A DNA stretch of 64,000 bases. Origin: Lytechinus pictus (taxonomy: Eukaryota). Where the stretch lies: contig NC_087250.1 of the NCBI RefSeq assembly GCF_037042905.1, positions 27,034,001-27,098,000 on the forward strand. Direction: 5' to 3'. Shown in pieces: positions 184-64,000 of this stretch. Every line of letters starts with the position of its first letter. Positions within the stretch are counted from its first letter, which is position 1. The position numbers were made by a program, and so were the translations under genes. Below the pieces are notes generated by a model, which did no database searches, was not told where the DNA came from, and saw nothing but the letters and a program-made list of their open reading frames with translations.

Positions 184-526
184 CAGTTCCAAAGAGGCGA
201 CATGAAAGAGAAATGTTAAAGAATTTATGGATGTTTAATGTCCAGTGTTCAAGTAAATATGCACAGATTATTTTCGAGATTCGAGTTGTCATTATTTGTT
301 AATTTTTCACAATATTAATAAAAAAAAATTCTCGAAATTAATTGAGATTGTAAATTCAAATGAATATACAGTTGATATTGATGTAATATAATTGGATGAT
401 TAGATGTAATTAAACTGTTGAAGAAGACGAAAATGTTTTATCATATATCTTATAATAGGTAATCATTCATTCGGATCTGTATATAGAACTGTATAAATGT
501 GACGTATTTTTTGTATTTTAGACACC

Positions 527-1043
527 ATGGATCTTACTGGAGTGCGCAGGAAACCGAACGGTGATGACCCTTCAACGAACACCGCCCTCTCTCGACATGA
601 ATTCTACGACATTTATCTCTGGGCATCGTCTAAAGATACAGACTATTTTCGTAAAATGAAAGATTGTATTCATTCCAATAGATGGAAAATGACATCTTGT
701 TTTGATCATAAGTTGGGTGAACTAGTGACGCAAAGCATCGAAAATGCTCTCTTGAAATGCTCCCACATGGTATGTTTGATCACGAAAGATGACTGTAAAA
801 CAGACAACCTTCAACAGCTTATGACAATAGAGATGGCGATTCAGTCGCTTCCAAGAACGACAGGAAAAGGATTAGAAGGCCGGGTTATTCCTATCCGTTG
901 TGACGTTCCAGAATCTTCTCTTACTCCTAAACTGAAGGCTTTGACAGGAGCGAGTATTGATGATCGCGACCTTGAAGAAAGACTAAGGAAAAGTATTAAT
1001 ACGAACATCCGGATGGAGAGAGAAGAAAAGGAGAATGTCACAG
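527..1043 (+). CDS. TIR-domain coding exon (exon 1 of a predicted TIR/coiled-coil/beta-propeller protein)
   Basis: TIR-like motifs in order: YDIYLWASSKD (bA), FDHKLGELVTQSIENALLKCSHMVCLIT (BB loop/aB/bC), EMAIQ (aC), RVIPIRCDVP..LTPKL (bD). Acceptor ttttag at 520-521 lies 5 nt before caccATGG; donor CAG|GTGATT at 1043/1044 (phase 1) lies just before the ORF stop. Confidence 0.75.
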
Positions 1044-2479
1044 GTGATTGACAGATTTATTGTCCCTACCAAAGGTATATTATTTGGCACATTGTGGTTA
1101 TATATGGGTAGTTTTACTCTAAATAGTCTACATCTATGCACTACACTCAACCATCCGTAGCAAAATACACAGCGATGTAAAAGAATTCGACCCCGCCCTC
1201 CTCAAATCATCACCAACATGATGATAATAAATAAATAGGATTTAGGATATAGGAATGATATAGTGCATACTAGAAAAAGGGAAAATGTTATAGCTCAGTG
1301 ATTTGTTCTCCTATATCATGATCATAAATTTACTTCATAAAGTGTACATGAATGGAAAAAATATACTTTTTTTTTTTTCATTTGAGACCCGTCTAAACGT
1401 TCCTAATGCACGCATGACTGAGTTAGAACAATGAAACGTCGTGCTACCAAATTTCCATTCGCACGTAAAGTTATGTTTTTTGAGTGAGTTTTGCTGGTTT
1501 TTACTGCTATCTATTCGGAAAACAAATTTTATACCTTGAGTATGAATTTTTTCCCCCTCTTTCATACAAGACCTTATGCGTTAAAAATATGAATGACGCA
1601 AGCCATAGTCAAGAAAAAATGTTGCATTGAAACATGCTTGATTTCTTACTATTCAATGGATCGTTGAAAAAACAAGCACTTTCTTTTCCCCCAACAAAAA
1701 AGGAAACAATCTTAAAAATAGGTCGGTGAAGGAAACCCCTTTATTCAGTGGCCGCGGAAGCGGGGGAGGGGAGCCCATATCACATGGGCGGCAGAATATG
1801 TTTGAACGGGGAGGGGCGCAGCAGAAAAGGGTACGCGTACATCACCTTTTTTACAATTGAAGGGGAGAAATCATTTTCGTGTTTTCCTTTAAATGAGTAA
1901 CCCCGCCCTATCCAATATTCCACCGCCCCTACCTGGTCTTGTCATATGAAGCATATTTTTACAAGTTTTACAAATAGAATTCAAACATTACTTTCAAGCC
2001 AGCAATAATATTCACTGGTAGCCCGTTTTCTGTCGCTTGTTGGAAATACTCGTTTTCCTATGATCAATAGGGAGAAATCAAGCATCGCATGTCTTCAGGA
2101 CACACACCACTAACTATTTCCCCATAGACTCATGTGTTAAAAATGAGATTTGAAAAAATCGCCAAAAAATAAGTCTTAATAAGGACATCATTTAGATTGT
2201 TCTTCCAATATCCTTCAAACGCCAAAGATAGGAAAATGTGTTTTTCAGCATGTTTTCGCGCTACAGGGGCTCAAACCAAGACTACATGCAAACTTGGTTG
2301 CAGTCACAGTGCTCACAGGGTTTCTTGGGCAACTAATTAAGGTCCCATAAAATCCAGCATTGACAAATCACTGCTCTCCCATTGGACTGAACAGATCCCG
2401 TAGTAATCCCTCTCTATATGCCCATGTGAAAAAAAAAATGTTCAGATAGGCATTGTTTATTTCATTTGAATATTTTTTC

Positions 2480-4065: not shown

Positions 4066-4393
4066 TTAATGATGTCGATAAACATTACTGAACGTAGTGG
4101 GTGCAAACACCTCAATACAAATAACTAACAAAATGTTTTTTTAGCGTTACGCTTGTCTTAATTTTCTCTATTTATTCAAACTCACATTATTCTGGAGTGG
4201 ACTTGACCTTTAAGCTAGACTACCGATTTAGGTGCTCGCAGCTTTTTGAAAAATTACCTTCTGCTGGTACCCAATTACCTAACCTGGGTTGGGTGCAGCG
4301 CAGTATGGGTAAAATCATCATTATTATTAACAAACATAGGCTTTTACCAAACATCCATAATTGATGTATTTTAAACTATTATTTACGATATAG

Positions 4394-5972
4394 GTTGCTA
4401 TGTGTCTCAACCTGAAAGAGATGTAACAAGAGAGCGACGCTATGTCAAAATGTCTTCTGGTCGCCCGAGCACCACCAAAGACGACGAACAGAAACAACGT
4501 GAGCTAGATGGGACGAGGAAGAAGCTGAATGAGAAACGGGCCATGTTAGAGGAAACAAAGCAAAGACACAAGGTAGTTGAATCGAAAATTAGAGCCGTTT
4601 CAAATTCATCAAGTAAGCATTTTCAAACGATCCATGATGATATCCAGGAGACATTGGACAAAACATTACTAAAGTTAAAAGTTAAAGAAAGAGAAAATAT
4701 AGAATGCATTAATGAGATAAACAAGGACGCAGATAAGCAAATAACAGACATAAATAAAAAGCGACAAAAAAGGATAGAAGCTAAAAAGGTCGAGCTAGAA
4801 CGGGAACGAAAAATAATCAAAGACAATGAAGCCAAACTATCATCATGTATATCAGACAAAGATGAAATCAGCAAAAAAGTTTCCGAGAAGATAAGCGATG
4901 TTAATAATAAGATTCAGGATGCAATAAAGAATATTGAATTCACCATCACACGTATAAACCAACATGATAAAACATTGGTGAATGAAGCTCCTCAAGTACT
5001 TGCATCTATTGATGAAAATTTAAGTTTGAATGTTCATCAAGATGTTAGCGACTGCCTTGACCGAATAAAGAGTGAAGTTGAGAGAGTGAAGTTTGTAGAG
5101 AGGGAAGTAGGTGGAGAATACTATGGTAGAATTGATGGGTATATCGGTAAATGGGAACTTGTCAAATCAATCCACATTCCATCGGTTGTTAATTACCCGT
5201 ATGTGCGTGGTTTAGTCAGTGATGATGAGATATGTGTGCGAGACGAAGATAACAATGACATGTATGTTACAAACATCAACACTCAACACACAGAGAAAGT
5301 CATTGATGGAGATGTGTGTTTATTACATCATGTGCGCCCATAGACAGTAACGTAATAGTATGTGGTAAGGAGAGAGATGATTGCACGGGTGACAGGTTGG
5401 ATGGATGCATCACTCTCTATGACAGGCAATGGAAGGTGATTAGAGACATCAGCATACCAATGAATGGAGGCAGTTATTGTGTGTATGTTGATGTTGACAG
5501 GGATGGGATGATCATCGCTGGTCAGTTCAATCAGTCTAATATCTACGTCATCAATCCTGCTGATGATAAGATAGTAAACACTATTACGATACAGGGTAAG
5601 GAGGTGAGGGGTGATATACAAGCCTTGTCATCAGGTGATATCGTTGTGAAGACAGGTGGTAATGAATTCACTGTCATCTCACGATCAGGAGAAGAGAAGG
5701 CTGTCATACACTGTGATGAGTGGTACGACCCACAGTGTCGCGTTGACAAACTGACAGACACACTCTACATCGCGTACTGGGATAGAGCACGTAAGACCTA
5801 CGCAGTTGATCAGGTGTCACGTGATGGTATCATCCAGGCAAGGAGGATCGTGGAATACGAGGAATCAGGTCGCGCTAACTTCATAAGCCCTTGTCTTGTT
5901 TCTCCTTCTGGTAACTTCGTAGGGTGTGATGGAGACAAACTTCTTCTCTACAAGAAGACATTAATCTTGTAA
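4394..5972 (+). CDS. Coiled-coil + NHL-like beta-propeller exon, copy 1 (no B-box; 2-bp frameshift at ~5313-5320, possibly a pseudogene or assembly error)
   Basis: ORFs 4402-5343 and 5316-5972 together align colinearly with ORF 41896-43557. One extra TG in GATGTGTGTTTATT relative to paralog GGTGTGCGTGTT shifts the frame. Confidence 0.85.
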
Positions 5973-23200: not shown

Positions 23201-24123
23201 TGACCCTGGATCTGATTATCAAACCTTTTGTCTCGAAATCATATAATTTATTCAATTTATCTTCCAGATCAGCTATATTTGCTAAAAGTCTATTATTCTT
23301 GGAGACATTTTCACTTAGTTGAGACTTCATTATCTCAATTTCTTTATTGAGATGATCCTTTTCTTTTTTCCTTTTTTTCTTTTTCCTGGCAAAGTATTCC
23401 ATACTGCAACCAGTAATTACACATTTAAGGGCATCCCACTGAGTGTTTGGATTACATTCAGGATCCTTATGTATTTTTTTAAATTCAGAGATCTTCTCCT
23501 TAATTAAATTTATATATTCTGCATCATGATGTAAATAATAACAATTAAGCTTCCAATATCCTTTACCTCTTTTGGGACTATTATCGTTGAAATGTATAGA
23601 TACTATGGAATGGTCAGATTGGATTCCCGGGGATATTTTCGACTTAACGCAGTTACCTATAAAATCACTAGAAACCAAAATGTAATCCAATCTGGAGAGA
23701 ACTTGGGGTGACTTTTGATGTCGTGTATATTGTCGCTGTGTTGGGTGAAAATGTCTCCAAACATCAATTAAGTTGTATTCTTCCATGAGATCTGAAATCA
23801 TATTGCTAGCCCTAACATTAGAGTGATGGTGTCTTGTACCCTGGTAATCTATATCACTAAGGGTGGCATTGAAGTCTCCGCCCAAGATTAAGGAAGAACT
23901 TTCAAACTTGTCCATTTCTGCAAATGTCTCTAGAAAAAAATTAGGGTCATCGTTGTTGGGAGCATAAATGTTAACAATAGTCAAATGTATGTCATTCAAA
24001 AAACAATTCAGAATTAAAAATCTACCTTGAGGGTCATATAAGGATGACTTCATTCTCACTGAGATAGAATTTCGTATTAGTATTGCAACACCCCGACTAT
24101 TGGAAGAGAAGTTAGTAAGTTAG
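20239..24123 (-). mobile_element. 5'-truncated, disrupted L1/Tx1-clade LINE (ORF2: APE endonuclease, RT, C-terminal Cys domain)
   Basis: ORF pieces 23193-24059 (VNIYAPN, GGDFN, SRLDY, SDH), 22549-23142 (KAPGFDG, YRPITLL), 21611-22348 (QGSPISP, FADD) and 20551-21669 (CVFC..ETIVHLFCEC). AATAAA and A-tail near 20239-20264; possible TSD TTC(C/A)TGTAAGAT. Confidence 0.92.
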
Positions 24124-37376: not shown

Positions 37377-37894
37377 CAGAGGCGTCGATCATGGGGGGGG
37401 GGGGGGGGCAGGGGGGGCAACCGCCCCACCAATGAAAATATTGGGGGGGGGGGCAAACATATCGTTTTGCCCCCCCAATAATTCCGCATGTGCAAAAAAT
37501 AAAATAAGATTGTAATGTAACACATAAATCAGCAAGCGAGATTGAGATACACAACTCGTTCTTCATCTAAAATCGTGCTCAAAATGTCCGGTTTTCAGAT
37601 TAGAATATTAAAAATTTTCAGCTCGCGCTTTGCGCTCGCATCATTTCTGTAGCAAAAACCCATACTTTTCATGATTGAATAGGTGAATAGAATGTCCCGT
37701 TTTCAGTTCTATACCTCAAAAGAACTCCCACTTCGATTTGCAATAACCTTTTGTTGGATATATTTCTTGTTCTTTATTAAAAACGTCAATTAAACTTTTT
37801 TTTTTAAGATCAAAATATCAAAATTTTCAGCTCGCGCTTCGCGCTCTCATCTATTATTTTTTTATTTTTTTTTAAATTTAATTTGTTGGTGAGA

Positions 37895-37925
<31 letters not shown>

Positions 37926-37935
37926 GTATATATAT

Positions 37936-37995
<60 letters not shown>

Positions 37996-38304
37996 TTTCC
38001 TCACCTCTGGTCTACCAATGGTTTCGCGCCTCGATCACGGGCGGCTCATCAGGACACTGAAGCTAGTTGGATTTGGTGGGGGCCCTCGGTTGGGGCAATG
38101 GATGCATTTCACGGTCCGGCGGTTCTTTGTTCCTTCTTTTGTGATTTAATATATATATATAATCTATATATATATACATATAGGCGTATGTGTGTGTGTG
38201 TGTGTGTGTGTGTTTGAGTCTGTTTGTTTTGTGTGATCGAGCGCCTTTTGAAAGTTGATTCACGATTTTGCCCCCCCAATCTGAAAAATGGATCGACGCC
38301 CCTG
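37377..38304. mobile_element. hAT-type MITE containing (TG)n/(TA)n tracts
   Basis: CAGAGGCGTCGATC ... GATCGACGCCCCTG; 8-bp TSD GTTGTGAC. Confidence 0.88.
38004..38062 (-). ncRNA. Type I hammerhead ribozyme motif (probably a Penelope-like element remnant)
   Basis: Minus strand: cttcagt GTC CTGATGA G c CGCC cgtgatcga GGCG C GAA ACCA t TGGT A GAC cagagg; core CUGAUGA/GAAA, GUA triplet and stems I-III are all present. Confidence 0.75.
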
Positions 38305-38452
38305 GTTGTGACGGATTAAAAGTATTCATCTGAACCTTAAACCTTTTTTCAATGTTATATTATTTTTATTTTCCCCTTCTTTTGGACATGATGAGATTGA
38401 TGTTTTCAATATTGATCAGATGTAAAGTGGAATCTTGATGTGTTTTGGACCA

Positions 38453-38845: not shown

Positions 38846-41800
38846 TGGACCCTATAGTAAGGTCCATGCTAAAACACTCTGTAGATTACGATCTTTGATA
38901 TCAGTATTAATAGTATATAACTATTATTGTTAAAGTCATGGTCAGTTATTAAATGTACAACATTATTATTATTCTTATTATAGTTATGGTGATTTAGATT
39001 TTTCGTTATTATAATCAAAATTATTATCATAAATGGTGACAATTATGATAATAATAATAAAGTAGGTGGCCGTAATAGTACTATTATTATGGTAATATTC
39101 ACCATCAACGTTATCTAACATACACAATAATAAAACATTTAAGTTTTATGCAGAAAAGTCTATAGAAAGTTCAAATAAAAAAAAATGAAAATGCCTTTAA
39201 AATTCAAGGCTCAACATCCTCAAAGCCAAGGCTTTACAGTCCAAGGCCTAGGCTTCGAAAAAGTTGGCCTTAAGGCGCTTAAAGACCAAGGTCGAGCATC
39301 AAGGCACTACAACACTAGTTCTTGATTACACAATTTTTTTTCTTAACTTTCCAGATTTTAGGTCAGGATATCAATTTTCAGCTTGCGTTTTGTGCTCGCT
39401 TCAATAATGTTAAGATGTCCGTTTACACATCCAAGTTTAAAAGTCGGAAATTAAAAAAAATCACAGCTCTCTCTCTCTCTTGTATCAGAAGTTTAGTAAG
39501 AAATTTATTTTGTTCACAGTTAGAAAAAAAGGGCTAAAAATGTCAAGGTTAAAACTCGGAAAATAAAAATTTTCAGCTCGCGCTTTGCGCTCCCATATTT
39601 TGTGTAGTAAGATACCTATCCTCTTAAGGATAGCAAAAAGTTAATTTCTTATTGTTTAGTCGGAAAATTTCAAGCTCATGCTTCGCGCTAGCATTAATAT
39701 TGTTTGATGAAATACATATCATGTTTATGTTTGCAAAATTACTTGTTGCTCACATTGATTGGTAGGATATGTATTCTTCTCATGTGTTACATGGAAACCT
39801 TCATTAACAGGTAGCTTTTCAGATCGATATAGTAACATTTTCAACTCCCGCTCGCAATTTCCTCTACATTAGCCACTGCAAAACTGTTATTATTAGCTCC
39901 CTTTTTAGATTAGTGTATTGAAATTTTGGCTCGCGCTTCGCGCTCCCATTAATTATTTAGTTACATACGCATATTGTTCATGAAAAAAAAAAACTGCTCA
40001 GAATATCAAAGTTTATATCACTATACATGAAATATAAAAAAAATAGCTCGCGGTTTGTGCTCGCGTTATTTCTTAATGCCTTATCCTACTATCTTGTGTG
40101 GACGCACAAACCTGAGATGTAGTTAAAACTTCGGTCTTTTGAGAGGAATACCCCTAAAAATTAGCTCATGGCGGCCAATCGGAAAAAAATAATAATTTGT
40201 TTCTGCCGATCATTATTATTGTAAGATATGTGTTCTTTTCCCCGGATAACAAAAAAAGTATTAAGCTCTTGCTTTAGCTTTAGATTCCCATCATCCATTA
40301 GTGAGATAAGTATATCCTCACAACAATTTTCATGCCTCTTAAAAAGTGTTCAAAGGTTTCCAATTCTGGTCACTATAATAAGATTTTCACCTTGGGCTTT
40401 GGACTCGCATCAATCATAAAATTAAGATACACAAATTGTTCTTTATTCTAAAAACGTGCTTAAACTGTCCAATTTTCAGATGGGAATATGAAAATATCCC
40501 AGCTCGCACCCCAAGTTTGTATGGCTTAATTAATCATGCTTAAAAAATTCAATTTTCAGTATAGATAAAAAAAAAAAAAATCAGCTCGCACTTGGCACTC
40601 GCATCAATTTTTTTATTATAAAGGCATCTTATCTTGAATGATTATACGCGACCACAAAGCGTGAGCTGCATTTTTTTTTATTCTAACCTGAAAAACGAAA
40701 ATGATCTTTTTCATATTATTATAGAAAATTTCAGCTCGCAATTCGCGCTCACATTTTTTTTATTTATCCCTTGTAAGATACCTTACCGTGTTTTTTAGAA
40801 TAAATCTCATAATTTATTTAACTTCGGACGGTTTCTACAAAACATATCTATTTTGGTGCCCCCTACAAATGTTCAAGCAGCCCCCCAGCTGAATTAAGTC
40901 TCAGATACGCCATTGCCTTCAAGATTACATTACTACCAAGGGATGTTATCAATACTATTTCTAACCTCCCGCTTACACAATTCTAGGCCTACTCTGATTA
41001 AAAAATACATGAAATTGAAACCCCCAAATACTTGAAACACAAATTACTCGCGCTTTGCGCTCGCATTTATTATTTTTGAAGAAAAAGTGACATTACATAT
41101 ATTATATATATGTGGATTTATTTCCTTCATGAAAATATGATTAGAAATAGTGGTCTTCAAATGCCGTGTTTTATGTGACTAGGAAATAAAATAATTCAAC
41201 ACGCATTTAAAGCACTTTTCTTGCTCGGCGGGGAGGGAGGAGGCGTATTTTTTTCTCTCTAAAATGGCACCAAAATCAGGTCAGGTTTCTGCCCCTCCCT
41301 ACGAAATCCCAGATCTTATTATCATTATTCTATACATGAGGAATTTCGTATATCATTTTTTACAATGAAAAGAGCCATTATACTTTTTTCTCTTCGAACA
41401 TTTAAATTTCGCTGTAACTTATGCTCACTGCATATACTAAATTTGTGCCCTAAACATACTAGACATCTTTTTGACGTTGTTTGTCGTTTTCTCTACGCAC
41501 TATCATAATTTATTTCCAAAATTCTTTGCAATTTGAGCACTGATCCACGTTTATCATGAGCTAAAAATAAAAACCATACCACCTAATATGTTTATACACT
41601 GCACCTCTTCGTGTATTCGTGTTTAATAATACATTATACAAGGATCTCAATTCAACTAAAGGAAAAAAAAAAGTATTACATTAAGTGTTGTTTTATCGGT
41701 TCACAAAACAACGCAAGAAAAATTAAGATTAAATCTGAGAACACTTTCACTGTAAAGGTTTCTGAGAAAGCGAGGGAATGTTTAATATACCCTCGTAATT

Positions 41801-43440
41801 TTTTGATCAAATGTTTCTTGAGTTCATTTTAACTTTTCTTGCGTTTTTTTTTTTTTTTTTTTTAGGTAGGCTACTGTCCCTATTTTATCTTCGTCATGGC
41901 GTCTAAGTTCCCAAAAAAGAAGGGTGGAGAGGACGAGCTTCGTACAAGGAAAGGTCATGACATGAAATGGTCATGTGACAAGCATGGTGAGCCAATCAAA
42001 TTTTACTGTAAGAAACACAAAATTCCTATTTGTCATCCATGCGCTACCAAAGATCACAGTCAAAAACCATGTCAGCTAGACGACATCGAGGATGTCATCT
42101 TCGAAAGGAGGAGACAGCTTGATGAAAAACGGCCAAAAATACAGGAACTTCAGAAACAATTGGACGCCCTCAATGGGAAAATAAAGACTGTGTCAACGTC
42201 TGGAAGTACTCATCTTCGGAAAATTAACAACAACATTCAAGATTCATATCACGACAAGATCGAATCTGTTGGAGAAAAGGAGAACAGGATGATTAGGGTT
42301 ATTAACGAGGAGGCAGATGAGGAAATAAGACTCGTAAATGAGAAGAGAGAAAAACGGATCAAGGATTGCAACACCGAGAGAGAAAATGAGCGACAAATCA
42401 TCAAAGACAAAAAAGCAAAACTTTTATCAGATGCAAAGAAAATCAGCGAAGTTGTTTCTAAGAAGATCAAAGATCTTGCTAATAAGAATCAGCATGTAAT
42501 AAACACTGTAAAGAACATTGAATCAACCATCAAACGTATAAACCAACATGATGAAACATTGGTGAATGAAGCTCCTCAAGTACTTGCATCTATTAATGAA
42601 AATTTAAGTTTGAATGTTCATCAAGATGATAGCGACTGTCTTGACCGAATACAGAGTGAAGTTGATAGAGTGAAGTTTGTAGAGGGGGAAGTAGGTGGAG
42701 AATACTATGGTAGAATTGATGGATATATTGGTAAATGGGAACTTGTCAAATCAATCCACATTCCATCGGTTGTTAATAAGCCGTGGGTGCGTGGTTTAGT
42801 CAGTGATGATGAGATATGTGTGCAAGACGTAGATAACAATGACATGTATATTACAAATATCAACACTCAACACACAGAGAAAGTCATTGATGGAGGTGTG
42901 CGTGTTACATCATGTGCGCCCATAGACAGTAACGTAATTGTATGTGGTAAGAGGAGAGAAGATTGCACGGGTGACAGGTTGGATGGATGCATCACTCTCT
43001 ATGACAGACAATGGAAGGTGATTAGAGACATCAGCATACCAGGGAATGGAGACGATTATAATAGTGTGGATGTTGATGTTGACAGGGATGGGATGATCAT
43101 CGCTGGTGAGTACTATCAGTCTAATATCTACGTCATCAATCCTGCTGATGATAAGATAGTAAACACTATTACGATGCAGGGTAAGGAGGTGTGGAATGAG
43201 ATACAAGACTTGTCATCAGGTGATATCGTTGTGAAGACAGGTGATGATGAATTCACTGTCATCTCACGATCAGGAGAAGAGAAGACTGTCATACACTGTG
43301 ATGAGTGGGACGTAACACAGTGTCGCGTTGACAAACTGACAGACACACTCTACATCGCGTACTGGGATGAAGCGCGTAATACCATCGCAGTTGATCAGGT
43401 GTCACGTGATGGTATCATCCAGACAAGGAGGATCGTGGAA
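38846..43440 (+). repeat. Segmental duplication matching ~54010-56606 plus 61764-64000
   Basis: Near-identical by eye; the ATGs of copies 2 and 3 are 20561 bp apart. Confidence 0.9.
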
Positions 43441-43557
43441 TACGAGCAATCAGATCGCACTAAATTCATGAGCCCTTATCTCGTTACTCCTACTGGTAAC
43501 TTTATAGGGTGTGATGGAGACAAACTTCTTATCTACAAGAAGACATTCATCTTGTAA
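41896..43557 (+). CDS. RING-less TRIM-like protein: B-box zinc finger, coiled coil, NHL-like beta-propeller (copy 2, intact, 553 aa)
   Basis: B-box pattern CDKH-x7-C..H...ICHPCATKDH; charged heptad region; beta-rich repeats from WELVKSI (42736). Single coding exon preceded by poly-T + AG (41864-41865). Confidence 0.9.
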   Translation: MASKFPKKKGGEDELRTRKGHDMKWSCDKHGEPIKFYCKKHKIPICHPCATKDHSQKPCQLDDIEDVIFERRRQLDEKRPKIQELQKQLDALNGKIKTVSTSGSTHLRKINNNIQDSYHDKIESVGEKENRMIRVINEEADEEIRLVNEKREKRIKDCNTERENERQIIKDKKAKLLSDAKKISEVVSKKIKDLANKNQHVINTVKNIESTIKRINQHDETLVNEAPQVLASINENLSLNVHQDDSDCLDRIQSEVDRVKFVEGEVGGEYYGRIDGYIGKWELVKSIHIPSVVNKPWVRGLVSDDEICVQDVDNNDMYITNINTQHTEKVIDGGVRVTSCAPIDSNVIVCGKRREDCTGDRLDGCITLYDRQWKVIRDISIPGNGDDYNSVDVDVDRDGMIIAGEYYQSNIYVINPADDKIVNTITMQGKEVWNEIQDLSSGDIVVKTGDDEFTVISRSGEEKTVIHCDEWDVTQCRVDKLTDTLYIAYWDEARNTIAVDQVSRDGIIQTRRIVEYEQSDRTKFMSPYLVTPTGNFIGCDGDKLLIYKKTFIL

Positions 43558-43905
43558 ATCATCTAGACTATCAAAGGAATGATATCGGATTTGTAAGAGA
43601 AATATAGACCAGAGGTTTGCTTTTACTTTTATTTTTATTTCAATTTACATCCTTCAAGCTCTATGTACGTGACTACATTCATATACGCATGGTCACGGTG
43701 TTTAATGTTGTATCAATCCATATTAAATAAAAAGCGGTCGTTAATTTATTTATCTGTCTAGATTAGGTATGTAATGAATATCCTCAGATCCAAATAAATA
43801 GTTTACTCGTAACATGAGCAAAATAAATACAAATGTGTTAACGAATTGCCTACTTGAACCAGATAGTTACTGTAGAGTCTTTCAAATGACCGAGTTCAGT
43901 ATTAA

Positions 43906-44268
43906 AGGGGAATGAATTCTTTGGAATAGGTAGGCTTTGGTCGAAACAGAAAAGTAAAAAAAAAACAGATCAACGAAAGTTTTAGAAAAATGGGACAAGC
44001 AATGAGAAAGTTTTGAGCATTCGAATATTGCAATCCTCCAATTGGCAATGCAACAAGGATTTGTGATGAACAAATTTCCCTTTGATGGACTATAAAATAC
44101 CCCAAAATGTATCTCGTTGCTCTTTCTTATGGTGATACAAACTCTTTATCCATGATTTAAAAATCTGTATTACAAGCCCTCCTATAGAAAGAACACGTGA
44201 TCTAGTGATACATGTGATAAAAGAGGTAATTTAAGTGAAATATATACTAAAGTCATGGGGAGAGTTGC
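43906..44268 (+). mobile_element. One-ended Kolobok-like fragment
   Basis: TTAA|AGGGGAATGAA start; replaces ~750 bp present in unit A (~6320-7070). Confidence 0.55.
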
Positions 44269-45630
44269 TGATTACTATATAATTGTTTCCCCATATGACA
44301 TTATCATCTTTCACATTGGCTACCTGACTAGATAATCTAAAGTAACAATCATATGGAAATGAAACAAAAATAGTAATGATAGTTATTTGTACTGACGTAA
44401 TGTAATGATGTGTGTGCGCCCACTACGTTAAGTAATGTTCATCAACATCATGAAATTATGTCAAATTAATTTCATTATAAAGATCATATGAAAATAAAAA
44501 CATCCGATAGTTGATCGTACCGCGCTGTAAATAAATAAAGCAGGAACATATATATCAGACAGAATTAGATAATTTGTCAAATATCTGCCCATAATGTAGC
44601 TTTTGTTCGTGGTTTCATGTTAATAACTCAATTCAATTCATTTGTTTATTTCGTTTCTATTTTAAATTGTGTTTAGTGTGTAAACTGGAAGTCTATTCCA
44701 GAGGCATTAGCTAAAGTGAATATTTTTTAGATGAAAATGGTTGTATTCTTCTGATCATAATTGATTCAAATTGTGTGGTTATTCGTATACATCTACCCCC
44801 CCCCCCCCCCATCTCTCTTTTAACCCCTAAATTACCCCCTTGTACTGTGTAATACGACACGGATATCCATGTTGCTGCAATAAGTTGTATATAAATCGTT
44901 ATTGTCTAGGGTGTGTTGTTTTAAGGTAGGAGTATATCATTTTTCAAAAGAAAAAAAATCCAACCGAATTTATTCTTACAATAATCACCTTTGTACAGGT
45001 TAAGTTTAGCTAGGGTTTATGCTTTATTTCAACTATAAATTCAATTGCCCGTTATTGTCTATATAGTATAGGTTATTGAAAGTTTGTTCCTAAAAATGGA
45101 ACGGGATATAGTGCTATATGTTTACATTTTCTTCCGGTGATATGTCAGATCTAACGATTTTTCTTGTTTTTGATTGGCTGAGAAGCGTTGTTACTATGGG
45201 TAATGTCAAATGAAACGCTTGACAATCCAAACTTTTTTTTATTTGTTGTTTGATCTTATACAGCTAATTACAATTTTCTTCATAAAACTAGGAAAACTAA
45301 TGTACATAATGAACATATAAATTATGATATAACATGTATAATGTGATGATTTTAGTATCTATTATTTCAAGTGTATATTGCAAGATGAGTAGAAACTATA
45401 CTTTTTGTTTTTAAAATAATATATTTTCATTATACTTTGTTGTGAATTACTAACACTATTGAATAGAAAAAAAGCAACGTTTGTTGATGTATAGACTTAA
45501 ATCGAGACGAAATTATTCTTACCTACTTGAGAGCTGAAAATAGTCAAGTGAAAATAGTTCGGAAATATCTTTCTTTACTGTGAGTTAATGTATTTAGTAA
45601 ATTTTGAGAAATGTTTGCCAATGCAATATA

Positions 45631-56606: not shown

Positions 56607-59600
56607 GGAGGGCGCAATTCATCTTCGCTGGATAAGGTCACGACCGTTCCCGGAGAGTGATTAAACCCTCTATTTCTAACGTTTTTGGATATATATTTTG
56701 AGAAAGGACTAGTGGAATCTGAGGTAAATATAGTGACATAACATATATATCTATTTGGAAACTGGATGTTGTTGCATGGTCTTGATATTTTGAGATTCCA
56801 ACTTTGAGGTTAACGCCCAGGCTATTTTTGAAAGATGGCGGCCTACGCAGAAAAAGCCCGGTTTAAACCTCCAATAGACTCAACTGACATTAAACCGGTG
56901 TTTGTGAAACACAAGGACATCCCCTCTAGTAATGACAAAGATGTATCAAGTGAATAACTTTTCATGTGCATTGCTCGTACAACAAAAAGTAGCGGCATTA
57001 GAGGGATTAAAAAAATCGGAGGTTTATGGCGTTCATATCTGACGTCCCAAGACGCCCGTATAGAGCTCATCACAAAAGGCATGAATGTTAGGAATGTCAA
57101 TATCGCAGTATACGATAAAAATCCATTTCTAAATGATGGAATGGATGGATGTATTCGCCTCATAATTAAGGACATACCCCTGTCAGCCCATGACTCCTTG
57201 ATTTGTGACGAACTAGAGATGAGGAAATATAAAAATGTTGGGAAACCCACCTACCAACGGCTCCGTGTCGACGGGCAGTTGACATACTGTCTAACCGGAG
57301 ATAGGACTGTTTACATCCAGCAACCATCCCAACCCCTCCCTCGTTTCATGACCTTCGGCCTCTTCAAAGGGAGAATCTTCCACCCAGGGCAAATCACAAT
57401 CAACACAAGCAAGGTGGTAGTATGCTCCAACTGCTTGAACGAAGGGCACCATCGTTCAAGTTGCATTAACCCGGTTGTGTGCTGCATTTGTAAACAACCC
57501 GGGCACATTCAGCGTGATTGCAGCTATACGACCACGCCCACCTCGCAACAACAGGCTGATAACACCCGCACAGCAGATATCACCCCCGATGCCCAGGCGA
57601 CAATTGAACAGTTCATCGCGTCCAAGCGAAATGCAGCTACACCCGTCACCGAACAGACGCATCACCCTGACGACCCCATACCTATGGAACCGAAGATTAC
57701 GCGATCTAAAAGCAGCCGCCAATCGCAACAAAAGAATGCGTCGTCATCCAGGCAACCAGGCATATCTGAATACCTACGTAGCGAGAAAGCAAGTTCGCGA
57801 GAGTCGGCAGTCACAGAGGAAGAAACAAACACAGATGCAACAGCTTCAGGAGATGAAGAAGAATCCGACTCGTATCTATCTCCCGAAACACCGAGCCCTA
57901 AAAAACAAGGGGAAAACCCCGTCAAGCGTAGGAGAAAACAGAAAAAATGAAGAAAAAAAAATTGAACAGTAATTATTCTTGAAAGGTGCAGAGATGGTCC
58001 ATATCTGTTCTAACTTGAAAACGCAGAATCTACACCTCATTTCTCTTAATGTCAGAGGCATTCGGAATAAAGTAAAACGAGGCGTTATATTTTCATGGTT
58101 ATCTTTTCAAAAAGCGAATGTAATTTTATTACAAGAAACCTTCTTAACAACTGAACTGGAATATGCGTTTAGATCATAAAAATGTGGTGAGCTGAGCTTT
58201 TTCAACCATGGAACAAATCATTCTAAAGGCGTTGTGACTATAATAAAAAAAACAGGATAACATTGAAATACTCGAAACTTTTGTGAAATTCGACGGAAGG
58301 GCAATCGCTGTGAGATTAAGTGTTAAGAAAAAAGTATACTTTCTTCTAAATGTTTATGCCCCTACTAAAAAATCTGAAAAAGAAATATTTTTCAAGATAA
58401 TGTATAACTGGATAAAAGATATAAAACAAAAGGGTGATTTACTCGTATTTGGAGGTGATTGGAACTGTGTACAAGATCCCAAGCTTGATTCCCAAGGTTG
58501 TTCACAGGCTTATAAACAAATGAAAGGGTTACAAAATATTCAGAATAAATTTAGTCTAAGTGACGTATGGCGAAAATGGTATCCACTCGGAAAACAATTT
58601 ACCTGGCGTCAATTAACGTTAGTTATATCATCTCGACTTGATTACTGGTTGATTTCTTCATCATTGTATTGTAATGTCCAAAGTACTGATATCAGACATG
58701 CAATCAAGTGTGATCACTGTGCCATATCACTAAAATTAAGGATAGAAAGTGTTACGAGAGGAACGGGGACATGGAAATTTAATAATTCATTATTACATGA
58801 TTCTGTCTATAAGAAACATATTAAGTATATTATAAACTCTACATCATTTCAATGCTATATGAATGCAAGAACCAAATGGGACATTATGTAAAAAATAAGG
58901 ATTCGAGAGTCTACCATGAAATTCGCCAAGCAAAAGCAAATTGAAAAGATGGAATGGTATAAAAGAACGTACGAAAAGTACATGTTATTGTGCAGGAATG
59001 TTGACAGTGGTAATTACGAAAGAAACGACATAGCAAGAATGAACGATCTGAAAACAGATATTGAAAAATGGTATGCACATAGATGTAGGGGCGCATTTGT
59101 AAGATCTCGCGAACGGTGGATGGAATCTGGCGAAAGATCTAACAAGTATTTTCTCAATTTAGAAAAGAAAAATGGAAAACAAAAAGAAATTGACTGTATA
59201 AATAAAAATGGAAAAATCGTTACTGGTAATAGAAACGTTCTTAAAGAAATAACAAAATATTACAAAGACTTATACTAAAAAAAGTCTTTAAGTGTACATT
59301 CCGAAATAAAAAAAAGTACCTAAAAAATACAAATTTAACTACTCTTTCTGAGGATGATGTACTGGCTTGTGTAGGCTTAATAACAGAAAAGGAATGTTTT
59401 GAAGCGTTAAAAAATAATGAGAAATAACAAATCTCCCGGCAGTGATGGGCTAACTGCTGAATTCTATCGGTGCTTCTGGGATGATTTAAAGTATATGTTG
59501 ATCGATAGTTTAAACGAAGGCTTTGAAAGTCAAGAGTTGTCTGAAAGCCAGAACAGGTTGTCATTACATTGTTGCATAAAAAAGGTGACAAGAGAGTAAT

Positions 59601-62456: not shown

Positions 62457-64000
62457 ATGGCGTCTAAGTTCCCAACAAAGAAGGGTGGAGAGGTCGAGCT
62501 TCGTACAAGGAAAGGTCATGACATGACCTGGTCATGTGACAAGCATGGTGAGCCAATCAAATTTTACTGTAAGAAACACAAAATTCCTATTTGTCATCCA
62601 TGCGCTACCAAAGATCACAGTCAGAAACCATGTGAGCTAGACGACATCGAGGATGTCATCTTCGAAAGGAGAAGACAGCTAGATGAAAAACGGCCAAAAG
62701 TTCAAGGACTTCACAAACAATTGGAAGCCCTCAGCACGAAAATAAAGACTGTGTCAACGTCTGGAAGTACTCATCTTCGGACAATTGACAACAACATTCA
62801 AGATTCATATCACGACAAGATCGATTCTGTTGGAGAAAAGGAGAACAGGATGATTAGGGTTATTAACGAGGAGGCAGATGAGGAAATAAGACTAGTAAAT
62901 GAGAAGAGAGAAAAACGGATCAAGGATTGCAACACCGAGAGAGAAAATGAGCGACAAATCATCAAACACAAAGAAGCAAAACTTCTAGCAGATGCAAAGA
63001 AAATCAGCGAAGTTGTTGCTAAGAAGATCAAGGATCTGACTGATAAGAATCAGCATGTAATAAACACTGTAGAGAACATTGAATCAACCATCACACGTAT
63101 TAACCAACATGATGAAACATTGGTGAATGAAGCTCCTCAAGTACTTGCATCTATTGATGAAAATTTAAGTTTGAATGTTCATCAAGATGTTAGCGACTGT
63201 CTTGACCGAATACAGAATGAAGTTGAGAGAATGAAGTTTGTAGAGAGGGAAGTAGGTGGAGAATACTATGGTAGAATTGGTGGGTATATCGGTAAATGGG
63301 AACTTGTCAAGTCAATTCACATTCCATCGGTTGTTAATAACCCGTGTGCGCGTGGTTTAGTCAGTGATGATGAGATATGTGTGCAAGTACGTAACAGTGA
63401 CATGTATATTACAAACATCAACACTCAACACACAGAGAAAGTCATTGATGAAGGTGTGCGTGTTACATCATGTGCGCCCATAGACAGTAACGTAATAGTA
63501 TGTGGTAAGGGGACAGGTGATCGCACGGGTGACAGGTTGAATGGATGCATCACTCTCTATGACAGACAATGGAAGGTGATTAGAGACATCAGCATACCAA
63601 GGAATGGATACGCCGTATATTATAGTGTGTATGTTGATGTTGACAGGGATGGGATGATCATCGCTGGTCAGTTCAATCAGTCTAATATCTACGTCATCAA
63701 TCCTGCTGATGATAAGATAGTAAACACTATTACGATGCAGGGTAAGAAGGTGTGGGATGGGATACAAGCCTTGTCATCAGGTGATATCGTTGTGAAGACA
63801 GATTATAATAAATACACTGTCATCTCACGATCAGGAGAACGGAAGGCTGTCATACACTGTGATGAGTGGGTCTGGTCAGAGTGTCTCGTTGACAAACTGA
63901 CAGACACACTCTACATCGCGTACTGGGATAGAGCGCGTAATACATACGCAGTTGATCAGGTGTCACGTGATGGTATCATCCAGGCAAGAAGGATCGTGGA
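62457..64000 (+). CDS. RING-less TRIM-like B-box/coiled-coil/beta-propeller protein, copy 3 (runs off window end; missing from the ORF track)
   Basis: Manual translation MASKFPTKKGGEVELRTRKGHDMTWSCDKHGEPIKFYC ... DGIIQARRIV with no stop; colinear with 41896; acceptor at 62425-62426. Confidence 0.9.
   Translation, partial: MASKFPTKKGGEVELRTRKGHDMTWSCDKHGEPIKFYCKKHKIPICHPCATKDHSQKPCELDDIEDVIFERRRQLDEKRPKVQGLHKQLEALSTKIKTVSTSGSTHLRTIDNNIQDSYHDKIDSVGEKENRMIRVINEEADEEIRLVNEKREKRIKDCNTERENERQIIKHKEAKLLADAKKISEVVAKKIKDLTDKNQHVINTVENIESTITRINQHDETLVNEAPQVLASIDENLSLNVHQDVSDCLDRIQNEVERMKFVEREVGGEYYGRIGGYIGKWELVKSIHIPSVVNNPCARGLVSDDEICVQVRNSDMYITNINTQHTEKVIDEGVRVTSCAPIDSNVIVCGKGTGDRTGDRLNGCITLYDRQWKVIRDISIPRNGYAVYYSVYVDVDRDGMIIAGQFNQSNIYVINPADDKIVNTITMQGKKVWDGIQALSSGDIVVKTDYNKYTVISRSGERKAVIHCDEWVWSECLVDKLTDTLYIAYWDRARNTYAVDQVSRDGIIQARRIV

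What the first reader, a model, noticed from the sequence alone, without database searches (positions are those of the whole stretch)
42736..43557. CDR-like hypervariable patches in an otherwise frozen propeller framework
Copies 1/2/3 differ at short periodic patches: YPYV/KPWV/NPCA; RDEDNN/QDVDNN/QVR-NS; GDVFI/GGVRV/EGVRV; ERDDC/RREDC/GTGDR; MNGGSYCVY/GNGDDYNSVD/RNGYAVYYSVY (with codon indels); QFN/EYY/QFN; EVRGD/EVWNE/KVWDG; GGNEF/GDDEF/DYNKY; YDPQCR/DVTQCR/VWSECL; RARKTY/EARNTI/RARNTY. The DNA between patches is nearly identical even at silent sites. Roughly two patches per blade, rich in Tyr/Trp/Asp/Arg, suggest one ligand-binding face under diversifying selection (inference).
Basis: partly seen in the sequence, partly recalled or inferred. 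Interest (0 to 1): 0.85.

Follow-up and report, generated by a model that had tools for sequence, protein, structure and literature searches.

The report
Hypervariable face on sea-urchin NHL propellers
A large sea-urchin gene family encodes TRIM-like proteins whose six-bladed propeller keeps a fixed framework while the loops on one face differ in nearly every copy, the pattern expected of a germline repertoire of immune-type recognition proteins.

Summary
Window 42736-43557 is the C-terminal part of an intact single-exon ORF (41896-43557, 553 aa). The protein has a B-box, a TRIM-type coiled coil and a six-bladed NHL-like propeller, and no RING. Homologue names point to a sea urchin (Lytechinus). 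The genome holds at least 128 matches, about 30 of them close paralogues.

Differences among the three window copies are clustered (0 of 10,000 permutations match). In 29 paralogues they fall on the B-C and D-A loops, which form the 'top' face of NHL propellers. Of 35 sites with posterior above 0.95 for positive selection, 31 lie in or within two residues of those loops. None lies in the 96 bottom-face residues.

For top loops defined by structure alone, pN/pS is 2.05 in 14 disjoint pairs (p=1.5e-7). M1a/M2a gives 2ΔlnL=696 and M7/M8 gives 742. The coiled coil of the same genes gives 0.39.

Silent divergence in the propeller roughly matches the adjacent non-coding flank. The framework is therefore young and recombining, not silent-constrained.

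The pattern recurs in two other urchin species and two distant subfamilies. Function (cytosolic immune sensor) is inferred. No expression was shown.

The parts
41896..43557 (+). Copy 2: intact single-exon ORF, 553 aa plus stop. It encodes a RING-less B-box / coiled-coil / propeller protein.
   Evidence: ORF list. The same sequence is in the protein collection as P0001.
41968..42060 (+). B-box zinc finger (aa 25-55)
   Evidence: Pfam PF00643, 26 bits against a cut-off of 24.1.
42106..42660 (+). Coiled-coil and linker region (aa 71-255). It evolves under purifying selection.
   Evidence: A profile of A2 matches the B-box/coiled-coil of TRIM25 (E 2.2e-6) and TRIM5 (E 9.6e-6). M0 omega is 0.44 and M2a-M1a 2ΔlnL is 0.39.
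42661..43554 (+). Six-bladed NHL-like beta-propeller (aa 256-553)
   Evidence: AF2 model with pLDDT 87.8, pTM 0.86 and 25 strands. The best fold matches are NHL domains: Mei-P26 Z 24.2, Brat 24.0, TRIM2 22.7.
42760..42792 (+). Patch 1: loop before strand 1A (D-A type) plus the start of 1A. Selected sites are domain residues 40, 42 and 44.
42823..42843 (+). Patch 2: blade 1 B-C loop (selected sites 57, 58)
42889..42906 (+). Patch 3: 1D-2A loop (selected site 81)
42949..42990 (+). Patch 4: blade 2 B-C loop, the longest loop and the only low-confidence one (selected sites 98, 100, 102, 110)
43033..43065 (+). Patch 5: 2D-3A loop, with codon indels (selected sites 131-135)
43105..43122 (+). Patch 6: blade 3 B-C loop (selected sites 151, 152)
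43174..43200 (+). Patch 7: 3D-4A loop (selected sites 176, 178, 180)
43231..43251 (+). Patch 8: blade 4 B-C loop (selected sites 192, 195)
43297..43323 (+). Patch 9: 4D-5A loop and the start of 5A, with codon indels (selected sites 217-220)
43357..43386 (+). Patch 10: blade 5 B-C loop and its flanks (selected sites 233, 235, 237, 238, 242)
43444..43479 (+). Patch 11: 5D-6A loop (selected sites 267-270)
4393..5972 (+). Copy 1: coiled-coil plus propeller exon without a B-box. A 2-bp insertion near 5319 shifts the frame in this assembly.
   Evidence: Two overlapping ORFs. The gap appears in alignment A1. P0011 aa 71-376 matches 4393-5310 at 96.7%.
521..1045 (+). TIR-like exon. A gene model from the protein collection (P0011) joins it to the copy 1 exon.
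   Evidence: Pfam TIR_2, 21.6 bits, below the cut-off of 28. P0011 aa 1-71 match 833-1045 at 100%.
62457..64000 (+). Copy 3: same architecture as copy 2. It runs off the window, and the whole 553-aa ORF is seen in locus L017.
   Evidence: P0029 is 100% identical over 514 aa

Best explanation
The region encodes the recognition domain of one member of a large, tandemly arrayed sea-urchin family of RING-less TRIM-like proteins (B-box, antiparallel-type coiled coil, six-bladed NHL-like propeller).

Shown: the propeller has a conserved framework. Eleven alternate loops (every B-C and D-A loop, the conventional 'top' face of an NHL propeller) plus the C-terminal tail are hypervariable. They carry in-frame indels, are enriched in Trp/Phe/Tyr/Arg/Cys, and show nonsynonymous divergence about twice the local silent and flanking non-coding divergence. 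Almost every paralogue carries its own set of loops. The genes are mosaics: crossing-over or gene conversion joins different N-terminal halves to young propeller-plus-3'-flank segments and also recombines within the propeller.

Inferred: the family is a germline repertoire of cytosolic recognition proteins. The variable top face would bind diverse non-self ligands (protein or RNA of viruses or other intracellular parasites). The coiled coil would dimerise the protein. The B-box, or in some members a TIR or Death-plus-TIR-like head, would drive assembly or signalling. New specificities would arise by duplication, point substitution and small indels in the loops under diversifying selection, and would be reshuffled by recombination.

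The confidence of 0.6 is for the whole statement. The structural and evolutionary part alone I put at about 0.9, and the immune-sensor function at about 0.55.
For: Architecture:
- The B-box passes the Pfam cut-off.
- The B-box/coiled-coil profile matches TRIM25, TRIM5 and TRIM28 structures.
- The AF2 model has pLDDT 87.8, and its best fold matches are the six NHL domains of TRIM-NHL proteins, Z 21.4-24.2.
- The nearest Atlas clusters carry PF01436 NHL.
- There is no signal peptide or TM segment (maximum KD(19) 0.84).

Family size: at least 128 genomic matches, with 30 close loci mostly in one roughly 1-Mb same-strand array.

Selection:
- Structure-defined top loops give pN/pS 1.84 over all pairs, 2.05 in disjoint pairs and 2.14 gap-free.
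- Bottom loops give 0.59-0.69.
- M2a/M1a 2ΔlnL is 696 and M8/M7 is 742. The coiled-coil control of the same 20 genes gives 0.39, against 497 for their propellers.
- Of the 35 selected sites, 31 are on or next to top loops and 0 fall among the 96 bottom-face residues.

Neutral yardsticks:
- In 52 pairs with at least 1 kb of alignable 3' flank, flank divergence is 0.079, propeller pS is 0.068 and top-loop pN is 0.165.
- pS is equal (0.072) in top and non-top codons of close pairs, so there is no local mutation hotspot.

Repertoire: 25-28 of 29 motifs are distinct at 8 of the 11 patches and 19-24 at the other three.

Recombination:
- PHI test, 0 of 1,000 permutations.
- Copy 2 shares its 5' flank with L011 (99%) and its 3' flank with L004 (96.9%).
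- L002 and L016 have flank divergence 0.011 but coiled-coil pS 0.462.

Replication:
- The same positions are variable in 20 L. variegatus proteins (Spearman 0.68) and 22 S. purpuratus proteins (0.59). In each species 33 of 36 top-entropy sites are on or next to top loops.
- Top-loop pN/pS is 1.61 and 1.14 in two subfamilies about 40% identical to copy 2.

Face assignment: the Brat-NHL paper defines the b-c and d-a loops as the top surface and shows that this surface is the RNA-binding platform (PMC4015489, figure legend and passages read).

Immune hint:
- TIR-like and Death-like heads are seen on some members.
- 140 TRIM-annotated genes are reported in S. purpuratus, and some are up-regulated in coelomocytes (PMC13043383, passages read).
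Against: - No function, ligand or expression was shown. Two RNA runs (about 6% of each read) gave 0 reads on the gene at 97% likeness or more, and the tissue is unknown.
- The site models are my own implementation, with a fixed FastTree topology and only a global branch scale. The data are recombinant, which is known to inflate such tests. The pairwise tests do not depend on a tree, but the pairs are not fully independent.
- The face was assigned from strand order in a predicted model, not from coordinates. 4 of the 35 selected sites lie in strand cores.
- With the coiled-coil silent divergence (pS 0.295) as yardstick, top-loop pN (0.213) is not above 1. I attribute this to the different ages of the two gene halves, but it is a weaker point.
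- The TIR and Death hits are below Pfam's gathering scores.
- There is no RING, so no E3 ligase activity can be assumed.
- The selected sites are not net positive (R+K 12.8%, D+E 14.8%), unlike RNA-binding NHL top faces.
Confidence: 0.6

Rival explanations
1. The loops are merely unconstrained (omega near 1). The apparent excess of amino-acid change would come from recombination, from misalignment around indels, or from a depressed silent rate in the propeller.
For: Recombination is demonstrable and can inflate likelihood-ratio tests. The patches carry indels (48 of 62 gapped columns). Propeller pS (0.088) is 3-5 times lower than coiled-coil pS (0.295) or B-box pS (0.435).
Against: The tree-free test on 14 disjoint pairs gives 2.05 (p=1.5e-7). 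It still gives 2.14 (p=0.0013) after removing all codons within two columns of a gap. Propeller pS equals the adjacent non-coding divergence (0.068 against 0.079 in 52 pairs), so the silent rate is not depressed. The equally recombinant coiled coil shows no signal (2ΔlnL 0.39).
Confidence: 0.05
2. A targeted mutational or templated mechanism generates the patches, rather than selection on ordinary mutations. Candidates are local hypermutation or cassette-like micro-conversion from donor copies.
For: Very young pairs already differ strongly in the loops: L002-L016 has flank divergence 0.011 and top pN 0.080. Some motifs recur in non-sister copies, for example CDEWDWSEC in 5 of 29. About 30% of site pairs are incompatible even at 1-30 bp.
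Against: Silent divergence is the same in top and non-top codons of close pairs (0.072 each), which argues against a local mutation hotspot. Most patch motifs are unique among the 29 copies (for example 28 of 29 at patch 4), so copying of whole cassettes from sampled donors is rare. Conversion alone does not raise pN over pS.
Confidence: 0.07
3. The proteins are diversified RNA-binding regulators of the classical TRIM-NHL kind (like Brat, Lin41, NHL-2). Their top faces would track fast-changing RNA targets such as transposon or viral RNAs, rather than proteins.
For: The variable face is the one that binds RNA in Brat (PMC4015489). The best fold matches are RNA-binding NHL domains. The selected sites are rich in aromatic residues and Arg. 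LINE elements are interspersed with the genes.
Against: Selected sites are not net positive (R+K 12.8% against D+E 14.8%), whereas TRIM-NHL RNA-binding faces are described as electropositive. No NHL sequence motif is detected by Pfam. This rival differs from the main reading only in the class of ligand.
Confidence: 0.2
4. The diversity serves a non-immune conflict or recognition system, for example substrate adaptors for endogenous proteins, intragenomic conflict, or allorecognition or gamete recognition.
For: Diversifying selection and tandem expansion also occur in reproductive and allorecognition genes. No immune expression was shown here.
Against: The protein has no signal peptide or TM segment, so a cell-surface recognition role is unlikely. 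Family members carry TIR-like and Death-like heads, which are typical of immune or death signalling. Endogenous substrates would not favour a different surface in nearly every paralogue.
Confidence: 0.1

Closest known systems
Fish finTRIM and primate TRIM5alpha (TRIM proteins with a hypervariable B30.2/SPRY domain)
   Same: All share a TRIM-type B-box and coiled coil followed by a C-terminal recognition domain. All are large, clustered, lineage-specific multigene families. Positively selected sites concentrate in the loops that form the ligand-binding surface, and recombination is present (PMC2657112, passages read).
   Different: The variable domain here is a six-bladed NHL-like propeller, not a B30.2 beta-sandwich. 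There is no RING. The coding region is a single exon. Some members replace the B-box head by a TIR-like exon. The host is an echinoderm.
Classical TRIM-NHL proteins (Brat, Mei-P26, Lin41/TRIM71, NHL-2, TRIM2/3)
   Same: The domain order is B-box, coiled coil, NHL propeller. The fold matches have Z 21.4-24.2. The functional surface is the top face made of the b-c and d-a loops.
   Different: Classical members are few (3-5 per genome) and belong to the slowly evolving, conserved TRIM group 1 (PMC2533329). Most carry a RING and bind RNA through a conserved electropositive face. Here there are more than 100 copies, no RING, no Pfam NHL match, and a hypervariable face that is not net positive.
Expanded sea-urchin innate receptor families (TLR, NLR, SRCR) and Sp185/333
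   Same: These are echinoid-specific tandem expansions of putative recognition genes, with rapid diversification and recombination (PMC3367398 abstract seen in the listing; PMC5103432 abstract seen in the listing).
   Different: They use different scaffolds (LRR, SRCR, repeat-element mosaics) and have a different cell location. I found no paper that describes this B-box/NHL family as diversified.
Plant NLR LRR domains and lamprey VLRs (repeat scaffolds with hypervariable solvent-exposed positions)
   Same: A rigid repeat scaffold carries variable residues on one face, and clustered paralogues exchange sequence. This comparison is recalled from general knowledge and comes from no call.
   Different: The scaffold here is a closed propeller. 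Diversity is purely germline as far as seen here, and no somatic assembly was observed or tested.

Membership tests
TRIM / RBCC (tripartite motif) proteins | N-terminal RING finger | tested here: not met
   A Pfam scan of the whole 553-aa ORF finds only the B-box. The ORF starts 24 residues before the B-box. Homologues of 549-553 aa carry only PF00643.
TRIM / RBCC (tripartite motif) proteins | B-box zinc finger | tested here: met
   PF00643, 26 bits against a cut-off of 24.1, aa 25-55.
TRIM / RBCC (tripartite motif) proteins | Coiled coil directly after the B-box, of the TRIM type | tested here: met
   The A2 profile matches the B-box plus coiled-coil chains of TRIM25 (2.2e-6), TRIM5 (9.6e-6, 2e-5) and TRIM28 (3.4e-5) over profile positions of about 15-193. 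Dimerisation itself was not tested.
NHL-repeat domain (Pfam PF01436) | Sequence match to the NHL repeat profile | tested here: not met
   No PF01436 hit at E<=0.01 in copies 1-3. The nearest Atlas clusters carry PF01436 in 72% and 24% of members, which is a lead only.
NHL-repeat domain (Pfam PF01436) | Six-bladed propeller of four-stranded blades, closest in fold to solved NHL domains | tested here: met
   The model has 25 strands and pLDDT 87.8. The top six VIA matches are all TRIM-NHL domains, Z 24.2-21.4, with 247-269 residues aligned. Other six-bladed propellers follow closely at Z 21.0 or below.
Diversifying immune TRIMs (finTRIM / TRIM5alpha type) | B30.2 (PRY/SPRY) C-terminal domain | tested here: not met
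   The C-terminal domain is a propeller and there is no SPRY hit.
Diversifying immune TRIMs (finTRIM / TRIM5alpha type) | Positive selection concentrated in loops of the ligand-binding surface, within a clustered multigene family | tested here: met
Diversifying immune TRIMs (finTRIM / TRIM5alpha type) | Antiviral or immune function, or induction by infection | not testable with these tools
   Only a blank from two RNA runs. No functional data.
TIR-domain proteins (copy 1 and relatives only) | TIR domain by profile | tested here: inconclusive
   TIR_2 scores 21.6 bits (window 527-1048), and 17.7-19.9 bits in P0025. All are below the gathering score of 28, but they cover profile positions 6-110 of 122.

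The most novel reading that the evidence does not exclude
Echinoids possess a previously unrecognised class of intracellular immune receptors with three features. (1) An NHL propeller serves as a CDR-like, germline-diversified 'paratope'. (2) The signalling or assembly head is interchangeable (B-box, TIR, or a MyD88-like Death-plus-TIR). (3) A recombination junction between the coiled coil and the propeller lets recognition and signalling modules be re-paired. The family would have more than 100 genes per genome and would stand beside the TLR, NLR, SRCR and Sp185/333 expansions.
Probability: 0.4. Interest if true: 0.8.

Novelty: new variant of a known kind. Interest (0 to 1): 0.62.

Why it matters
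TRIM-NHL proteins are treated as the conserved, slowly evolving branch of the TRIM family, and rapid immune-type diversification is associated with the vertebrate SPRY branch (PMC2533329). This finding shows the NHL propeller used in the opposite way. It acts as a fixed scaffold whose whole top face is re-drawn in nearly every one of dozens of paralogues under strong diversifying selection. The pattern is conserved across at least three sea-urchin species and several subfamilies.

If these are immune sensors, they add a large intracellular recognition repertoire to the sea-urchin immune gene set. They would also be an independent, convergent example of the TRIM5/finTRIM strategy on a different fold. 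The family is directly testable: the 35 selected sites define the surface to mutate or swap, and L. pictus is a genetically tractable urchin (PMC9245184, abstract seen in the listing).

Tried and rejected
- Expression: the look-up of sequencing runs listed no holder on record as RNA. Laying two raw RNA runs (about 6% of each read) gave 0 reads on the gene at 97% likeness or more. The only reads fell on a repeat at 43,984-44,385. This is a blank, not evidence either way.
- Logan contigs of X1 and X3 lay on the gene only as 80-234-nt pieces. X1 word depth was 3.3 on the unique upstream flank and 13.8-350 across the gene bins that had any depth, which fits many copies sharing framework words. One bin over patches 5-6 had no depth, but a hole proves nothing.
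- Foldseek against the PDB ranked seven-bladed G-beta chains first (TM about 0.6), with TRIM2-NHL at rank 32. The Foldseek-independent VIA search was needed to see that NHL domains fit best.
- A MAFFT alignment of all 3' flanks timed out and was replaced by pairwise blastn.
- The idea that the framework is frozen by silent-site constraint was rejected: propeller pS roughly equals non-coding flank divergence.
- The idea of a mutational hotspot was rejected: pS is equal in top and non-top codons.
- Whole-patch cassette copying as the main generator was rejected: most motifs are unique.
- The search of earlier findings returned nothing for this genome.
- Literature searches and the L. pictus immune paper (PMC11688612, 0 occurrences of TRIM, B-box, NHL or TIR) gave no description of this family. 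Subscription journals and supplements were not searched.
- Copy 1 (L025) was left out of all codon analyses because of its frameshift. L018 was left out of the coiled-coil control because its N-terminal part is truncated.
Full report
WHAT IS THERE

The finding lies in the last 273 codons of an intact, single-exon ORF at 41896-43557 on the + strand (553 aa). The window is eukaryotic: low G+C, microsatellites and LINE fragments. It belongs to an 812-Mb assembly. The closest database proteins are named from Lytechinus pictus, with further relatives only from L. variegatus, Strongylocentrotus purpuratus and unnamed records. They are called 'uncharacterized protein', 'B box-type domain-containing' or 'TRIM5-like'.

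The window holds three copies:
- Copy 1 is at 4393-5972. It is read in two frames because of a 2-bp insertion near 5319, and it has no B-box.
- Copy 2 is at 41896-43557 and is intact.
- Copy 3 starts at 62457 and runs off the window. It is complete in locus L017.

OBSERVATION

In the DNA alignment the differences, including in-frame gaps, sit in short blocks separated by long identical stretches. Among the three copies, 58 of 235 shared codons vary. They form 31 runs against 43.9 expected, and 0 of 10,000 permutations gave as few. Bin dispersion is also far above chance.

ARCHITECTURE

- Pfam finds a B-box (aa 25-55, 26 bits against a cut-off of 24.1) and nothing else. There is no RING and no NHL profile hit.
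- A profile built from 35 family members matches the B-box-plus-coiled-coil chains of TRIM25, TRIM5 and TRIM28 in the PDB (E 2e-6 to 5e-4).
- AlphaFold2 on aa 256-553 with that alignment gives a confident all-beta model: pLDDT 87.8, pTM 0.86, 25 strands and four-strand periodicity.
- Foldseek returns generic propellers.
- The Foldseek-independent VIA search puts six TRIM-NHL domains on top: Mei-P26 Z 24.2, Brat 24.0, TRIM2 22.7, Lin41 22.2, NHL-2 22.2 and TRIM71 21.4. Other six-bladed propellers follow from Z 21.0 down.
- The ESM Atlas feature search also lands on NHL clusters, mostly from molluscs (a lead only).
- There is no hydrophobic segment or signal peptide.

The protein is therefore a cytosolic, RING-less, TRIM-like B-box / coiled-coil / NHL-like propeller.

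FAMILY

The propeller finds at least 128 places in the genome at E<=0.001 (141 candidates scored). About 30 of them are 66-86% identical. Most lie in one same-strand array at 27.0-27.95 Mb of contig C6. Smaller clusters lie at 22.9 and 26.1-26.3 Mb of C6, and on C16 and C9. I aligned 29 of the 30 close loci. Copy 1 (L025) was left out for its frameshift.

WHERE THE VARIATION SITS

I labelled residues from the DSSP strand order of the model alone, as B-C and D-A loops ('top', 81 residues), A-B and C-D loops ('bottom', 52), and strands.
- Of the 35 sites with entropy of at least 1.5 bits, 24 are in top loops and 7 are within two residues of them. Three are in strand cores and 1 is in the C-terminal tail. 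None is among the 96 bottom-loop or bottom-adjacent residues.
- All 11 alternate loops carry variable sites. None of the 11 interleaved loops does.
- In an antiparallel four-strand meander, alternate loops lie on the same side. The Brat-NHL paper states that the b-c and d-a loops by definition form the top surface, and shows that this surface is the RNA-binding platform (PMC4015489, legend and passages read).
- Gapped columns are also concentrated there: 48 of 62 are top or top-adjacent. Another 12 come from truncated N-termini or termini, and 2 are on the bottom face.
- Selected sites are enriched in W (7.7x), F (3.7x), C (2.4x), Y (1.9x) and R (1.6x). D is not enriched.

SELECTION

- Over all pairs (Nei-Gojobori counting), the structure-defined top loops have pN 0.213 and pS 0.116, a ratio of 1.84 (bootstrap over codons 1.43-2.40). 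Bottom loops give 0.69.
- In 14 disjoint nearest pairs (28 of 29 sequences), top loops have Nd 390 and Sd 51. The ratio is 2.05, with binomial p=1.5e-7 against the neutral N:S expectation. All other codons give 0.76, and pS is 0.072 in both classes.
- After removing every codon within two columns of any gap, 31 top codons remain and the ratio is 2.14 (p=0.0013).
- My own codon-model fits use F3x4 frequencies, a FastTree topology and a global branch scale. M1a has lnL -8135.7 and M2a has -7787.4, so 2ΔlnL is 696, with omega2 7.5 on 14% of sites. M7 against M8 gives 2ΔlnL 742 and omega 7.9, with the same 35 sites at posterior above 0.95. Of those sites, 22 are in top loops, 9 are adjacent, 4 are in strand cores and 0 of 96 are bottom (Fisher 3.7e-9).
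- As a control, the coiled coil of 20 of the same genes gives M0 omega 0.44 and 2ΔlnL 0.39. Their propellers give 497.

WHY THE FRAMEWORK LOOKS FROZEN

Across 21 B-box-bearing paralogues, silent diversity is 0.435 in the B-box region and 0.295 in the coiled coil, but only 0.088 in the propeller framework. Two explanations were possible: constraint on silent sites, or a younger and recombining 3' half.

The second explanation fits.
- In 52 pairs whose 3' flank aligns over at least 1 kb, non-coding flank divergence (0.079 pooled) is about the same as propeller pS (0.068). The coiled coil of the same pairs can be up to 0.5 diverged.
- The extreme case is L002-L016: flank 0.011, propeller pS 0.016 and coiled-coil pS 0.462.
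- Copy 2 shares its 5' flank and N-terminal half with L011 (99%; coiled-coil pS 0.009). It shares its 3' flank with L004 (96.9% over 1.5 kb).
- A pairwise-homoplasy (PHI) test on the propeller is significant for all sites and for framework sites alone (0 of 1,000 permutations each).

The genes are therefore mosaics, with a frequent junction between the coiled coil and the propeller and further exchange inside the propeller.

Against these neutral yardsticks, top-loop pN is 2-7 times higher in young pairs. Because pS is not raised in the loops of close pairs, a local mutation hotspot is unlikely. Because 25-28 of 29 motifs are distinct at most patches, wholesale copying of patch cassettes is not the main source of variants, although a few motifs are shared among non-sister copies.

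One caveat remains. If the older coiled-coil pS were used as the yardstick, top-loop pN would not exceed it. I regard the local yardsticks as the right ones, given the demonstrated difference in age of the two halves.

REPLICATION

The per-site entropy profile of the L. pictus-type paralogues correlates with that of 20 L. variegatus proteins (Spearman 0.68) and 22 S. purpuratus proteins (0.59). In each species 33 of the 36 most variable positions are in or next to top loops.

Two distant subfamilies of the same genome are about 40% identical to copy 2: 12 genes on C13 and 10 genes at 1.2-1.8 Mb of C6. Their top-loop pN/pS is 1.61 and 1.14, against 0.31-0.94 and 0.45-0.95 for the other classes. 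The second subfamily is only marginally above 1.

N-TERMINAL HEADS

Copy 1 and several paralogues (L005, L010, L030, L023) lack the B-box and begin with a different short segment. Upstream of copy 1 is an ORF with a sub-threshold TIR_2 match (21.6 bits against 28). The database protein P0011 joins window 833-1045 (100% identity) to 4393-5310 (96.7%). This amounts to a TIR-like / coiled-coil / propeller gene model. P0025 (795 aa) adds a weak Death-domain match (17.2 bits against 22.6) before the TIR. An L. variegatus isoform carries a ZU5 domain after the propeller. These matches are leads towards immune or death-fold signalling, not proof.

MECHANISM PROPOSED

Shown: a rigid propeller with one hypervariable face under diversifying selection, a large clustered family, and modular recombination.

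Inferred: each paralogue recognises a different ligand through its top face. The coiled coil dimerises the protein and the B-box or TIR head drives assembly or signalling, as in TRIM5alpha/finTRIM-type restriction or sensing. The ligand class is open. It could be protein, or RNA as in Brat or Lin41. The selected sites are aromatic-rich but not net positive, which leans slightly towards protein.

LITERATURE

- The closest described analogue is the fish finTRIM family. There, M2a/M8 sites concentrate in the B30.2 variable loops (PMC2657112, passages read).
- NHL-type TRIMs are placed in the conserved 'group 1' (PMC2533329, abstract and passages read).
- A 2026 paper notes 140 TRIM-annotated genes in S. 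purpuratus and their induction in coelomocytes after UVB. It does not analyse their diversification (PMC13043383, passages read).
- Seven full-text searches found no description of a hypervariable NHL family in echinoderms. Subscription journals and supplements were not covered.

VERDICT

I classify the finding as a new variant of a known kind: an immune-type diversifying TRIM-like family built on a different recognition fold. Function is still untested.

Noticed in passing
window 521-1051 (+) and 4393-5972 (+): A TIR-like exon (Pfam TIR_2, 21.6 bits, below cut-off) lies 3.3 kb upstream of copy 1. The database gene model P0011 joins it to the copy 1 exon, giving a TIR / coiled-coil / propeller variant. 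In this assembly copy 1 has a 2-bp insertion near 5319 that shifts the frame, so it is either a pseudogene or an assembly error.
   Followed up: partly
protein P0025 (paralogue of copy 1 type, not in the window): The N-terminus has a weak Death-domain match (17.2 bits, profile positions 5-82 of 86) followed by the TIR-like domain. This is a MyD88-like head on a coiled-coil / propeller body. Both hits are below Pfam's gathering scores.
   Followed up: partly
protein P0014 (L. variegatus, 955 aa): An isoform carries a ZU5 domain (24.1 bits, cut-off 21) after the propeller. This is another domain typical of death-fold signalling proteins.
   Followed up: no
loci L002 and L016; L001, L011 and L004: There is a sharp change of relatedness between the coiled coil and the propeller. 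L002-L016 have 3' flanks 1.1% diverged and propeller pS 0.016, but coiled-coil pS 0.462. Copy 2 shares its 5' half with L011 and its 3' flank with L004. This suggests a recombination junction in the conserved linker.
   Followed up: partly
window 20551-24059 (-): A fragmented LINE-type retrotransposon is present: endonuclease (Exo_endo_phos), reverse transcriptase in two pieces (RVT_1) and zf-RVT ORFs.
   Followed up: yes
window 56964-58891 (+): A second retroelement remnant is present. It has a 328-aa ORF with a zinc-knuckle-like Cys/His pattern (no Pfam hit) followed by a weak endonuclease ORF (Exo_endo_phos, 20.4 bits, below cut-off).
   Followed up: partly
window 37800-38330: Long (TA)n, (CA)n and (TG)n microsatellite runs give spurious ORFs on both strands.
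   Followed up: no
window 43984-44385: A short repeat about 430 bp downstream of copy 2 attracts RNA reads from both raw runs (about 100 reads each, nearly all only partly on it) and very high contig word depth. It is probably a dispersed, transcribed repeat rather than the 3' UTR of the gene.
   Followed up: no
window 40500-44500, run X1: Contig word depth is about 3.3 on the unique upstream flank and 13.8-350 across the gene bins that had any depth, as expected if dozens of paralogues in that sample share identical framework 31-mers.
   Followed up: no
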